This document shows positions 1,384-5,051 of a stretch of 16,643 bases of DNA, one piece after another. The notes below the pieces were generated by a model, which ran no database searches, was not told the origin of the DNA, and worked only from the letters and a program-made list of their open reading frames with translations. Numbering within the stretch: position 1 is the first letter of the stretch; each line of letters opens with the position of its first letter. This DNA is from a virus (Duplodnaviria > Heunggongvirae > Uroviricota > Caudoviricetes): the IMG/VR virus record IMGVR_UViG_2548876934_000006, positions 1-16,643 of that record. One strand, written 5' to 3'. The translations under genes were made by a program, and so were the position numbers.

Positions 1384-1516
1384 TTTTTGGGACTCCTGGC
1401 TGATTAAGTATGTCGATAAGGCGTTTCCATCCGTCACGTAATTTACGGGTGATTCGTTCAAGTAAAGATTCGGAAGGGCAGCCAGCAACAGGCCACCCTG
1501 CAATGGCATATTGCAT
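1352..1516 (-). CDS. cIII: cIII (FtsH/HflB protease inhibitor), 54 aa; absent from the ORF track because of its size
   Basis: Reverse complement from 1516 reads ATGCAATATGCCATTGCAGGGTGGCCTGTTGCTGGCTGCCC..., translating [54 protein letters not shown], then stop (TAA, 1354..1352). A GGAG Shine-Dalgarno sits just upstream on the minus strand. Confidence 0.85.
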   Translation of the reverse strand: MQYAIAGWPVAGCPSESLLERITRKLRDGWKRLIDILNQPGVPKNGSNNYGYPD

Positions 1517-1588
1517 GGTGTGCTCCTTATTTATACATAACGAAAAACGCCTCGAGTGAAGCGTAATTGGTATGCGGTAACGCCGCGC

Positions 1589-1957: not shown

Positions 1958-1976
1958 CTGTTCATATCCTCACAGA

Positions 1977-2003
1977 TAAAAAATCGCCCTCATCTTGGAG
2001 GGC
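1977..2003 (-). terminator. candidate intrinsic terminator on the leftward transcript (tL-like), between the 293-aa gene and ea10
   Basis: Minus-strand reading gives stem GCCCTC, loop CAAGAT, stem GAGGGC, followed by GATTTTTT (plus-strand coordinates 1986-1991 and 1998-2003, T-run from 1977-1985). Six-bp GC-rich stem plus U-tract; would be read through under N antitermination. Confidence 0.45.
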
Positions 2004-2145
2004 AAAGAAGATTTCCAATAATCAGAACAAGTCGGCTCCTGTTTAGTTACGAGCGACATTGCTCCGTGTATTCACTCGTTGGAATGAATACACAGCGCTG
2101 TGTTTATTCTGTTGTTTGCGTGAAAATGAAATCCGCCTGAGCGGG

Positions 2146-3027
2146 TTATGACCACTTTTTGTTTGGGTTTCGTTGGTGAGCGTGGTTTACAGGATTATTT
2201 GATATACCCCATAACTCTGACTCGCTTATCTCTACACGAGAGAAAGACCTGCTTTCTTTCAGTTCTTTTATAAACCTAGAACCTAAGATGACATCTATTG
2301 TACCAGAAAGTTCTTGTAAAAGATCTATGTTTTTTCTGAGGAAGAAAATATCTTCTTTATATTTAATTTTTACATAGAATTTATTCTGTATTTTTAATAT
2401 ATCAAAGCATGGCAGATATCTATATCCCTCATATTTTCGCCACTGCTTAACAATTATAACATCTTTTTCATTTACTGCATTAATCAGCCCAAGACCAAGT
2501 ACAGGTATGAATATTCTATTGTCTGCCGAAAGCGTACAATTATCACCACCAGGCAAATATGTATAAATCATGTCGGAATTTTTATACGCATCAACGAATG
2601 CACGTAAGAAGCGTACATATTTTTGCCATCCGTTTATACCGAATTTACCATATAAGTATTCTTTATTTGTTAGAAGAAAACTATTTGTATCAGGATCCTT
2701 ATCTACAGACCTGTCGATAAGATCTCCAACTACGTTTACAAAGTCAAAGACAGAGTTTAATAAGAACAATTGTCTTTCAGTAGGGCGAATTTCAATTATG
2801 TAGCCAGGATGAAGACGATATTGCATCTGCTTACGAAGTATACCGAACGCTTGGGTCCGAGCATCTGAAAGCAACTTCTTGTCGCCATCGCCGTGAGCAT
2901 TGTTTCTAATAAAACTGATATAATTTGCTAATTTTTCAGCCTCTTTTTTGTGTTTTTTTCGCTCTGATGCTGAGTCTATTGGTTTTGGTATGGACTTGTA
3001 ATCAATCTTCTTCATTACGTACCTCAT
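2146..3027 (-). CDS. hypothetical protein, 293 aa, AT-rich moron in the slot where lambda has sieB/ral; candidate superinfection-exclusion or abortive-infection factor
   Basis: Long ORF with ATG at 3027..3025 overlapping the N stop (TGA 3026..3024), suggesting translational coupling to N. Base composition is visibly more AT-rich than the flanking lambda-like genes. No ral-like ORF is present anywhere in 1958-3027. I recognise no protein family; no clear transmembrane segment. Confidence 0.7.
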   Translation of the reverse strand: MRYVMKKIDYKSIPKPIDSASERKKHKKEAEKLANYISFIRNNAHGDGDKKLLSDARTQAFGILRKQMQYRLHPGYIIEIRPTERQLFLLNSVFDFVNVVGDLIDRSVDKDPDTNSFLLTNKEYLYGKFGINGWQKYVRFLRAFVDAYKNSDMIYTYLPGGDNCTLSADNRIFIPVLGLGLINAVNEKDVIIVKQWRKYEGYRYLPCFDILKIQNKFYVKIKYKEDIFFLRKNIDLLQELSGTIDVILGSRFIKELKESRSFSRVEISESELWGISNNPVNHAHQRNPNKKWS

Positions 3028-3347
3028 GCCAATGGAATGGATTCCCCTTTAACCTTTTGTCTTCCTTGACAAGTTATACCGAACTCACCTGGCTTGCTAT
3101 ACCAAACTCGATGATTCTTGCGCTCAATACGTTGCAGGTTGCTTTCAATCTGTTCGTGGTATTCAGCCAGCACCGTAAGGTCTATCGGATTCAGTGCGCT
3201 TTCTACTCGTGATTTCGGTTTGCGATTCAGCGAGAGAATAGGGCGGTTAACTGGTTTAGCGCTTACCCCAACCAACAGGGGATTTGCTGCTTTCCATTGA
3301 GCCTGTTTCTCTGCGCGACGTTCGCGGCGGCGTGTTTGTGCATCCAT
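3024..3347 (-). CDS. N: antitermination protein N, 107 aa
   Basis: Internal start of the 151-aa ORF gives MDAQTRRRERRAEKQAQWKAANPLLVGVSAKPVNRPILSLNRKPKSRVESALNPIDLTVLAEYH..., matching lambda N including the N-terminal arginine-rich motif. ATG at 3347..3345; the leader is nearly identical to the lambda pL leader. Confidence 0.9.
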   Translation of the reverse strand: MDAQTRRRERRAEKQAQWKAANPLLVGVSAKPVNRPILSLNRKPKSRVESALNPIDLTVLAEYHEQIESNLQRIERKNHRVWYSKPGEFGITCQGRQKVKGESIPLA

Positions 3348-3504: not shown

Positions 3505-3535
3505 GCCCTTCTTCAGGGCTTAATTTTTAAGAGCC
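3505..3535 (-). promoter_or_regulatory. nutL: nutL (boxA plus boxB) N-utilisation site
   Basis: Minus strand reads GGCTCTTAAAAATTAAGCCCTGAAGAAGGGC: a boxA-like GCTCTTA followed by the boxB hairpin GCCCTGAAGAAGGGC, the lambda nutL boxB as I remember it (plus coordinates 3505-3519). Confidence 0.8.

Positions 3536-3698: not shown

Positions 3699-5051
<1,353 letters not shown>

What the first reader, a model, noticed from the sequence alone, without database searches (positions are those of the whole stretch)
2146..3027. AT-rich 293-aa unknown gene coupled to N in the sieB/ral hotspot: candidate single-gene anti-phage or exclusion function
Seen in sequence: a 293-codon ORF whose ATG overlaps the N stop (ATGA at 3024-3027), with much lower GC than the flanking lambda-like N and ea10, and no ral-like ORF anywhere between ea10 and N. 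Established knowledge: in lambda this slot holds sieB (superinfection exclusion) and ral (anti-restriction), and equivalent slots in lambdoid prophages are known to carry exchangeable defence cargo. Inference: this is a horizontally acquired moron expressed from pL, possibly also from its own promoter in lysogens, and most plausibly an abortive-infection or exclusion protein. It has no obvious membrane segments, so it is not a SieB-type protein. I recognise no family, so it may be undescribed.
Basis: partly seen in the sequence, partly recalled or inferred. Interest (0 to 1): 0.8.

Follow-up and report, generated by a model that had tools for sequence, protein, structure and literature searches.

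The report
Long Nun-tailed protein of phage 434
The gene after N in this 434-like prophage encodes a 289-residue protein that joins a TnpB/Cas12-like nucleic-acid-binding body (no nuclease half) to the exact C-terminal peptide that phage HK022 Nun uses to jam RNA polymerase, so it is most likely a new, larger kind of Nun-type transcription-arrest (exclusion) factor whose target is unknown.

The parts
2146..3015 (-). CDS of the 289-aa 'long Nun' protein (stop codon 2146-2148); identical or nearly so to phage 434 CPT_434_48 / UMO75312.1
   Evidence: start supported
3016..3027 (-). Four extra in-frame codons (MRYV) from the upstream ATG that overlaps the N stop (ATGA, 3027-3024); probably not translated. 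The span contains the GAGGT Shine-Dalgarno (3025-3021) for the ATG at 3015
   Evidence: sequence; homologue starts; PHROG alignment from residue 5
2821..3015 (-). Residues 1-65: basic (pI 10) two-helix N-terminal extension found only in the Nun-tail clade; conserved LP[KR]P..D...R[KR]...K......N[CY][IL]SFI[KR]. Possible RNA-binding or ARM-like element, unproven
2356..2820 (-). Residues 66-220: conserved core with TnpB/Cas12-like WED-REC-WED topology (strand 71-77, four helices 80-145, strands 152-218); the invariant C160-S161-x-S163 motif lies here
2242..2355 (-). Residues 221-258: two C-terminal helices ending in the superfamily-wide motif E-S-[RK]-S-[FY]-[SA]-R-[VI]-[ED]
2191..2241 (-). Residues 259-275: acidic linker predicted disordered (pLDDT below 50)
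2149..2190 (-). Residues 276-289, VNHAHQRNPNKKWS: identical to HK022 Nun residues 96-109, the RNA-polymerase arrest peptide. DNA identity to HK75 and mEpX1 nun begins at the first of these codons
   Evidence: residue roles from PMC5386594
1974..2145 (-). Structured 3' untranslated region: hairpin 2093-2066 and the intrinsic terminator tL (stem 2005-1984 plus a T run). It is shared at 91-98% identity with short-nun phages and with over 2200 E. coli genomes, so it is not specific to this gene
3024..3347 (-). Lambda-type antiterminator gene N (107 aa), immediately upstream and co-transcribed from pL
3505..3519 (-). nutL boxB hairpin of lambda type (GCCCTGAAGAAGGGC on the minus strand): the phage's own nut specificity

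Best explanation
The gene encodes a modular transcription-arrest factor, a 'long Nun'. [quoted passage not shown] This is shown for Nun and inferred here. A roughly 30-residue disordered linker joins that peptide to a folded body. The body is a TnpB/Cas12-like WED-REC module with no RuvC/zinc-finger half, plus a basic two-helix N-terminal extension. I infer that the body replaces Nun's arginine-rich motif as the targeting device. It would bind a specific nucleic-acid feature (a structured nascent RNA or a DNA motif) of the transcription complexes to be stopped, raising the local concentration of the tail. The gene is transcribed with N from pL, upstream of tL, so it is made immediately after infection or induction. 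Whether it is also made in lysogens is unknown. Its most likely role is to stop transcription of competing phages or mobile elements whose recognition feature differs from 434's own lambda-type nut. Shown: identity and selection of the tail, fold of the body, modularity, genomic slot. Inferred: RNA-polymerase arrest, nucleic-acid targeting, exclusion role.
For: Tail.
- Residues 276-289 equal Nun 96-109 (6alg_N, phrog_5632).
- In six homology-found lineages (body identity 68-36%), V96, N97, H98, A99, H100, R102, K106, K107 and W108 are invariant. Changes fall only at positions 101, 103, 104, 105 and 109.
- Tail codons differ from 434 at 6-8 synonymous sites in the three homologues whose DNA was compared (L004, L002, L007), so the peptide is kept by purifying selection and not by recent transfer.
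- The invariant residues are those that contact RNA, DNA and beta' in the cryo-EM structure, while N103A is near wild type (PMC5386594).
- The tail lies at the extreme C-terminus after a disordered linker, as in Nun.

Modularity.
- The same tail ends 38 distinct short proteins (83-123 aa). Many have recognisable ARMs of HK022, lambda-N, phage-21-N or P22-like type.
- DNA breakpoints flank the tail codons.

Body.
- AF2 model with pLDDT 75.6 and pTM 0.73.
- Foldseek top PDB hit is ISDra2 TnpB with reRNA, probability 0.96.
- Giant-virus TnpB-type 'transposases' are ranks 1 and 4 in BFVD.
- I predicted this fold from sequence motifs before the fold search (note).

Slot.
- The gene lies directly after N in 434, L004 and L007, and directly after the repressor with no N in L002, which is the HK022 nun position.
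- Stx1a phages carry N followed by a short nun.

Context.
- It remains intact in this replication-defective prophage.
- Distant relatives sit on mobile elements, one lineage inside a BREX-like operon.
Against: - There is no experiment on this protein. No paper on it was found.
- Nun residues H93 and R94, which contact upstream DNA and matter for binding, are not conserved here (N-N-P instead).
- The TnpB link rests on one AF2 model built from a 14-sequence alignment (the other four models had pLDDT 57-67). Sequence does not confirm it: no Pfam hit, no PDB profile hit, hhalign probability below 3%.
- With the tails removed, there is no significant similarity between the N-terminal extension and Nun ARMs.
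- 434 has lambda-type N and boxB, so the target cannot simply be lambda-type nut without self-harm. No target is identified.
- No promoter for lysogenic expression is predicted, whereas exclusion by a prophage needs such expression.
- PADLOC recognises nothing.
Confidence: 0.55

Rival explanations
1. Self-regulation. The protein acts on 434's own pL/pR elongation complexes as a built-in antagonist or timer of N antitermination, tuning early transcription or the lysis-lysogeny decision. It is not an exclusion factor.
For: It is made from the same immediate-early transcript as N, with the genes 8 nt apart and upstream of tL. Three of four lineages keep it glued to a lambda-type N (Pfam N36). No lysogenic promoter is predicted. 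434's own nut is lambda type.
Against: L002 carries the gene without any N. Only 83 of 5426 E. coli genomes carry it, although lambda-type N regions are far more common, so it is dispensable cargo. It is AT-rich and mosaic like a moron. For HK022, nun mutants grow and lysogenise normally (PMC4124055).
Confidence: 0.15
2. The tail is incidental. The Nun peptide is kept as a recombination linker or as a docking tag for something other than RNA polymerase arrest, and the body works through another mechanism shared with its plasmid and BREX-associated relatives, for example sensing or binding foreign DNA, or abortive infection.
For: Relatives with the same body carry a different tail, GGLPSLGKRR, and sit in a BREX-like operon or on plasmid backbones. 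Mosaic joints flank the tail codons. Nun H93 and R94 are missing.
Against: Synonymous divergence with strict conservation of exactly the polymerase and nucleic-acid contact residues argues for selection on Nun-like function. Within this clade the tail is never lost or replaced.
Confidence: 0.12
3. RNA-guided arrest. Like TldR, the TnpB-derived body uses a guide RNA to find complementary DNA, and the tail then arrests polymerase at that programmed site.
For: TnpB/Cas12-like fold, with the best Foldseek hit being TnpB bound to its reRNA. TldRs are prophage-borne, nuclease-dead and sometimes C-terminally truncated TnpBs that repress transcription with adjacent guide RNAs (bioRxiv 10.1101/2023.11.30.569447). 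The 3' UTR is strongly structured (z = -5.1).
Against: The whole RuvC half is absent. From general knowledge of TnpB structures, that half helps hold the omega RNA scaffold and the heteroduplex. The structured 3' UTR is shared with short-nun phages and thousands of prophages that lack this gene. Flanks differ between lineages: 46 nt to the next gene in L002, 35 nt in the BREX-like operon. Rfam finds no associated RNA.
Confidence: 0.08

Closest known systems
HK022 Nun (P18683; PDB 6ALG chain N; phrog_5632 'Nun-like transcription termination factor')
   Same: Identical C-terminal 14 residues (Nun 96-109) at the extreme C-terminus after a flexible acidic segment. Same pL-proximal slot in lambdoid genomes. 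Shared downstream DNA with HK75 and mEpX1 nun. Modular logic of a targeting part plus an arrest peptide.
   Different: 289 aa against 109 aa. Nun's targeting part is a roughly 25-residue arginine-rich helix that binds boxB RNA. Here it is a folded body of about 255 residues with a TnpB-like core and no detectable ARM homology. Only 27 residues align (E = 1e-3). Nun H93 and R94 are absent. The gene sits next to a lambda-type N instead of replacing it. Expression in lysogens and the target are unknown.
TnpB / Cas12f-type RNA-guided nucleases and their nuclease-dead derivatives (TldR, Cas12m/c)
   Different: There is no RuvC or zinc-finger half at all; it is missing, not merely mutated. It is not recognisable by Pfam or profile searches. 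No adjacent guide RNA is evident. It carries an RNA-polymerase arrest peptide, which no TnpB, Cas12 or TldR protein is reported to have.
Lambda N-slot morons (Ral, SieB) and other prophage exclusion genes
   Same: Same hotspot between N and ea10; AT-rich exchangeable cargo.
   Different: No sequence or architectural similarity. The protein is soluble and not membrane-bound like SieB. Mechanistic clues point to RNA polymerase, not restriction alleviation or membrane-based abortive infection.
Unnamed plasmid/BREX-operon relatives (P0010-P0035)
   Same: Same core domain and the same S-x-S-[YF]-[SA]-R-V-[DE] motif before a short basic C-terminal peptide.
   Different: The tail is G-G-L-P-S-L-G-K-R-R instead of the Nun peptide. 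They lack the 65-residue N-terminal extension or have a different one. They are found in Betaproteobacteria (Dechloromonas, Burkholderia) and in metagenomes, between BrxC and PglX or beside TrfA/ParB genes. Function is unknown, and PADLOC has no model.

Membership tests
HK022 Nun family | C-terminal arrest peptide with N97, H98, H100, R102, K106, K107 and W108 at the extreme C-terminus | tested here: met
   Identical over Nun 96-109. Invariant across the long-form lineages with synonymous divergence.
HK022 Nun family | N-terminal arginine-rich motif that binds the boxB RNA hairpin | tested here: inconclusive
   A basic helix (residues 16-38, pI 10 for residues 1-65) exists. With tails removed there is no significant similarity to 38 short-Nun N-termini (best E about 0.014 in that tiny set, 5-7 bits). 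The lambda-N-like 'AEKLANY' is not conserved in homologues. RNA binding is not testable here.
HK022 Nun family | Small (about 85-125 aa) protein homologous over its full length | tested here: not met
   289 aa with a folded core. Only residues 267-293 of the 293-aa ORF align to Nun. It belongs to a separate PHROG, phrog_12139.
HK022 Nun family | pL-proximal position (N slot or directly after N) | tested here: met
HK022 Nun family | Arrests E. coli RNA polymerase; excludes a heterologous phage; expressed in the lysogen | not testable with these tools
   Needs in vitro transcription, plaque assays and lysogen RNA-seq. The simple promoter scan found no sigma-70-like site upstream within N.
TnpB / Cas12 superfamily | WED-REC-WED N-terminal fold | tested here: met
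   [not shown]
TnpB / Cas12 superfamily | RuvC nuclease domain with the D-E-D triad (or a recognisable dead remnant) and a zinc finger | tested here: not met
   After the WED-like strands (up to residue 218) only two helices and a disordered tail remain. About 120-135 residues align to TnpBs of 257-579 residues.
TnpB / Cas12 superfamily | Sequence-profile membership (Pfam OrfB_IS605 / HTH_OrfB_IS605 or a significant profile-profile match) | tested here: not met
   No Pfam hit for any of 20 members at E up to 10. PDB profile search empty. hhalign against TnpB N-terminal halves gives probability below 3%, although the two proposed local matches are the structurally expected ones.
TldR (TnpB-like nuclease-dead repressors) | Adjacent non-coding guide RNA gene | tested here: inconclusive
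   No Rfam family. The flanks are not conserved between lineages. The structured 3' UTR is generic to lambdoid tL regions. An RNA encoded inside the ORF is not excluded.
Known anti-phage defence systems (PADLOC-DB v2) | Match to any defence-protein model | tested here: not met
   0 hits for the 434 protein and for 8 distant relatives.
SieB / Ral (lambda genes of this slot) | Sequence similarity; membrane segments for SieB | tested here: not met
   No Pfam, PHROG or NCBIfam match to these. No hydrophobic segment.

The most novel reading that the evidence does not exclude
The protein is a natural 'addressable transcription terminator'. A RuvC-less relic of a TnpB-type RNA-guided protein would still recognise a specific nucleic acid, through a bound RNA or through TAM-like DNA/R-loop recognition, and would deliver the Nun peptide into RNA polymerase at that address. 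More broadly, the body family with interchangeable C-terminal peptides (the Nun tail in phages, GGLPSLGKRR in BREX-like and plasmid loci) would be a previously unrecognised class of adaptor proteins. These adaptors would couple nucleic-acid recognition to different effector machines.
Probability: 0.12. Interest if true: 0.9.

Novelty: new variant of a known kind. Interest (0 to 1): 0.68.

Why it matters
Nun has been treated as a single oddity: one small protein, one target (lambda nut), one phage group.

This gene, together with the survey of tail-bearing ORFs, suggests the Nun C-terminal peptide is a portable RNA-polymerase-arrest peptide. Phages appear to attach it to many different targeting modules. 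One of these is a large folded domain that looks like the non-catalytic half of TnpB/Cas12.

If confirmed, this would:
1. Extend Nun-type exclusion well beyond lambda/HK022.
2. Add a new fate for TnpB-like domains, namely loss of the nuclease half and fusion to a polymerase inhibitor.
3. Provide a compact natural scaffold for site-specific transcription arrest.
4. Give a handle on an uncharacterised component embedded in a BREX-like operon.

The gene sits in classical phage 434, so clean genetics is immediately available.

Tried and rejected
- Pfam, NCBIfam and PADLOC scans of the protein gave nothing.
- The first AF2 run, with 4 sequences, gave pLDDT 42.6 and was unusable.
- Profile search of the PDB with the 20-sequence alignment gave nothing.
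- Pfam scan of all 20 superfamily members at E up to 10 gave only scattered single chance hits.
- hhalign of the family against TnpB N-terminal halves was not significant.
- Lambda-N/Nun-like ARM in the N-terminus: it looked attractive by eye ('AEKLANY' against 'AEKQAQW'), but it is not conserved in homologues and shows no significant similarity once the tails are removed. I rejected it as a claim and kept it only as a possibility.
- Guide-RNA idea: no Rfam hit, and the structured 3' UTR is generic.
- A uniform defence-island association for the distant clade was softened. The BREX-embedded members are one closely related lineage, and the others sit on plasmid backbones.
- The afdb50 fold library was unavailable.
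- King et al. 2000 on the nun promoters (PMC94296) and the 2026 TldR structure preprint were not held.
- Literature searches found no paper that discusses this protein.

Full report
**1. Observation**

The window carries a minus-strand ORF at 2146..3027 (293 codons). Its first ATG overlaps the TGA of a lambda-type N gene as ATGA. A GAGGT Shine-Dalgarno (3025-3021) lies 5 nt before a second in-frame ATG at 3015. The first ATG has no such signal. All homologues begin at the second Met, the PHROG profile aligns from residue 5, and GenBank starts the CDS there. The product is therefore most likely 289 aa.

- GC is 0.346 (GC3 0.30), against 0.488 for N, 0.523 for bet and 0.385 for ea10.
- No other credible ORF lies between ea10 and N, and there is no hydrophobic segment.
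- The gene is real. Full-length homologues exist at 68, 48, 46, 42 and 36% identity, and 83 of 5426 complete E. coli genomes carry it.

**2. Identity of the locus**

The region matches phage 434 (OL657226), 99.7% at the protein level and 100% over a 351-nt DNA stretch. The record annotates CPT_434_48 as 'Nun C-terminal peptide-containing protein' with BLASTp similarity to HK022 Nun. The genome announcement does not discuss the gene (PMC9119081). All other sources call it 'hypothetical protein', and I found no paper on it.

The gene lies between N and the tL hairpin (2005-1984). It therefore belongs to the immediate-early pL transcript. 434's own nutL boxB is of lambda type (3519-3505).

**3. 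The tail**

Residues 276-289 (VNHAHQRNPNKKWS) are identical to Nun 96-109 (PDB 6ALG chain N; phrog_5632). [quoted passage not shown]
- N97, H98 and H100 contact RNA, template DNA and the rudder.
- R102 to S109 contact beta', RNA and DNA.
- W108 sits in a pocket that includes beta' D329.
- N103A is near wild type (PMC5386594).

In six homology-found long-form lineages V96, N97, H98, A99, H100, R102, K106, K107 and W108 are invariant. Only positions 101, 103, 104, 105 and 109 vary. In the three homologues whose DNA was compared (L004, L002, L007), the tail codons differ from 434 at 6-8 synonymous sites. The peptide is therefore maintained by purifying selection and is not merely copied. AF2 predicts residues 252-289 as disordered, as expected for a peptide that must thread into the polymerase. 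Nun H93 and R94 are not conserved.

**4. Modularity**

DNA identity to HK75 and mEpX1 nun starts at the Val96 codon (window about 2190) and continues about 200 nt through the terminator. Against the Stx1a-phage nun, identity covers only the tail codons plus about 10 nt.

The motif lies at the C-terminus in all but one chance hit (L098). Two architectures appear:
- **Short proteins (83-123 aa).** Many have recognisable arginine-rich N-termini of several kinds: HK022 type, lambda-N type MDAQARRREKRK..W, phage-21-N type and P22-like.
- **The 289-293-aa form**, in several divergent lineages.

The search pattern fixes the contact residues, so this survey speaks to architecture and not to conservation.

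Stx1a phages carry an N gene directly followed by a short nun. In L004 and L007 the long form directly follows a lambda-type N. In L002 it follows the repressor with no N, which is the HK022 arrangement.

**5. The body**

An exhaustive profile search found about 17 distant relatives (213-326 aa). They share residues about 73-225 and the motif S-x-S-[YF]-[SA]-R-V-[DE], but they end in G-G-L-P-S-L-G-K-R-R instead of the Nun tail.

From the sequence pattern I predicted a TnpB-like WED-REC module (note) before running the fold search. An AF2 model from a 14-sequence alignment reached pLDDT 75.6 and pTM 0.73, with residues 10-220 mostly at 80-95. Its topology is:
- two N-terminal helices;
- a strand, four helices and a strand-rich subdomain;
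- two helices;
- a disordered tail.

Fold searches gave:
- **Foldseek against the PDB.** The top hit is ISDra2 TnpB with reRNA, probability 0.96.
- **BFVD.** Ranks 1 and 4 are giant-virus TnpB-type transposases.

Only about 120-135 residues align, and nothing corresponds to RuvC or the zinc finger. Sequence methods do not confirm homology. hhalign's only two proposals are the expected, collinear ones: the first strand with the start of REC, and the P-x-L-G hairpin. I therefore describe the body as TnpB-like in fold, not as a TnpB family member.

**6. Distant clade context**

P0031, P0033 and P0027 are one lineage (59-70% identical). They lie between a BrxC-sized protein and a PglX-type methyltransferase, downstream of BrxB, in an operon that continues with two unknown genes, an Hsp70 and a second methyltransferase. 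P0028 lies beside NYN/OST-HTH, RelA_SpoT and PLD/MZB/helicase genes. Members in Dechloromonas and Burkholderia lie on plasmid-like backbones with TrfA, RepB/ParB and a resolvase. PADLOC has no model for any of them.

**7. Mechanism**

The best-supported reading is a targeted RNA-polymerase arrest factor. The body would take over the role of Nun's ARM, and the tail would do what it does in Nun.

434 uses lambda-type N and nut, so the target is probably not lambda-type boxB. The target remains unknown. Exclusion of competitors is the most likely role. Regulation of the phage's own early transcription is the main rival. An RNA-guided mode is unlikely for three reasons: the RuvC half is missing, the flanks are not conserved, and the structured 3' UTR (z = -5.1) is generic to lambdoid tL regions.

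**8. Comparison and novelty**

The protein shares Nun's arrest peptide and genomic slot. It fails the Nun tests for size, full-length homology and a demonstrable ARM. It shares the TnpB WED-REC fold but fails the tests for RuvC, sequence-profile membership and an evident guide RNA. TldRs are the nearest conceptual precedent for a prophage-borne TnpB derivative that acts on transcription.

The Nun-tail resemblance was already recorded in GenBank. New as far as I can tell:
- the TnpB-like body;
- the superfamily with alternative tails;
- the selection analysis of the tail;
- the breadth of tail-bearing architectures.

Verdict: a new variant of a known kind, interest 0.68.

Noticed in passing
[not shown]
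   Followed up: partly
L008, L009, L011, L012, L013 (gene at 6001-6831 in L008): Distant relatives with a GGLPSLGKxR C-terminus are embedded in a BREX-like operon: a 259-276-aa protein, BrxB, a BrxC-sized protein (~1150 aa), the family member, a PglX-type methyltransferase, 376-aa and 423-aa unknowns, an Hsp70 and a second methyltransferase. PADLOC does not recognise this component. The role of the conserved tail is unknown.
   Followed up: partly
L044, L047, L058, L059, L099, L037 (viral contigs): 88-aa ORFs combine a lambda-N-type arginine-rich motif (MDAQARRREKRKEKQEEWK) with the Nun arrest tail. L037 carries two tail-bearing ORFs (79 and 88 aa) about 300 bp apart. Their genomic context was not examined.
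   Followed up: no
L005 1802-2546 (Stx1a-converting phage LC645429): An unannotated N-like ORF is followed directly by a bona fide HK022-type nun (ARM SRDRRRIARWEKRIAY plus tail), then a 156-aa unknown ORF and ea10. The record has no feature annotation here.
   Followed up: partly
P0008 (96 aa; from the representative search): A chimeric protein joins the first 23 residues of Bet to the last 73 residues of the long-Nun protein. This implies a prophage deletion spanning from this gene to bet in some E. coli.
   Followed up: no
window 1970-2150 (-), hairpin 2093-2066 and terminator 2005-1984: The region from the stop codon to tL folds far better than shuffles (z = -5.1), with a long perfect hairpin ahead of the terminator. 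It is conserved in more than 2200 E. coli genomes and in short-nun phages, so it is a generic lambdoid tL/ea10-leader element of unclear role.
   Followed up: partly
window 1471-1529 (-): Rfam Lambda_thermo (cIII thermoregulator) at 88.5 bits, as expected for a lambda-like cIII leader.
   Followed up: yes
window ~2527-2538 (residues 160-163 of the 289-aa protein); alignment A2: A C-S-[IL]-S motif (C160, S161, S163) in the WED-like subdomain is invariant or nearly so across the whole superfamily, including the members of the distant GGLPSLGKxR-tail clade. I know of no counterpart in TnpB. Its function is unknown.
   Followed up: no
window 3699-4175 (-): The ORF overlapping the 3' end of the 434 cI gene is Hex. 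The GenBank record describes it as protecting the repressor from RecA-dependent cleavage and says a wrong start codon was inferred in the literature. No minus-strand terminator-like site was found between hex and nutL in the simple scan, so read-through of the pRM transcript towards N is not excluded.
   Followed up: no
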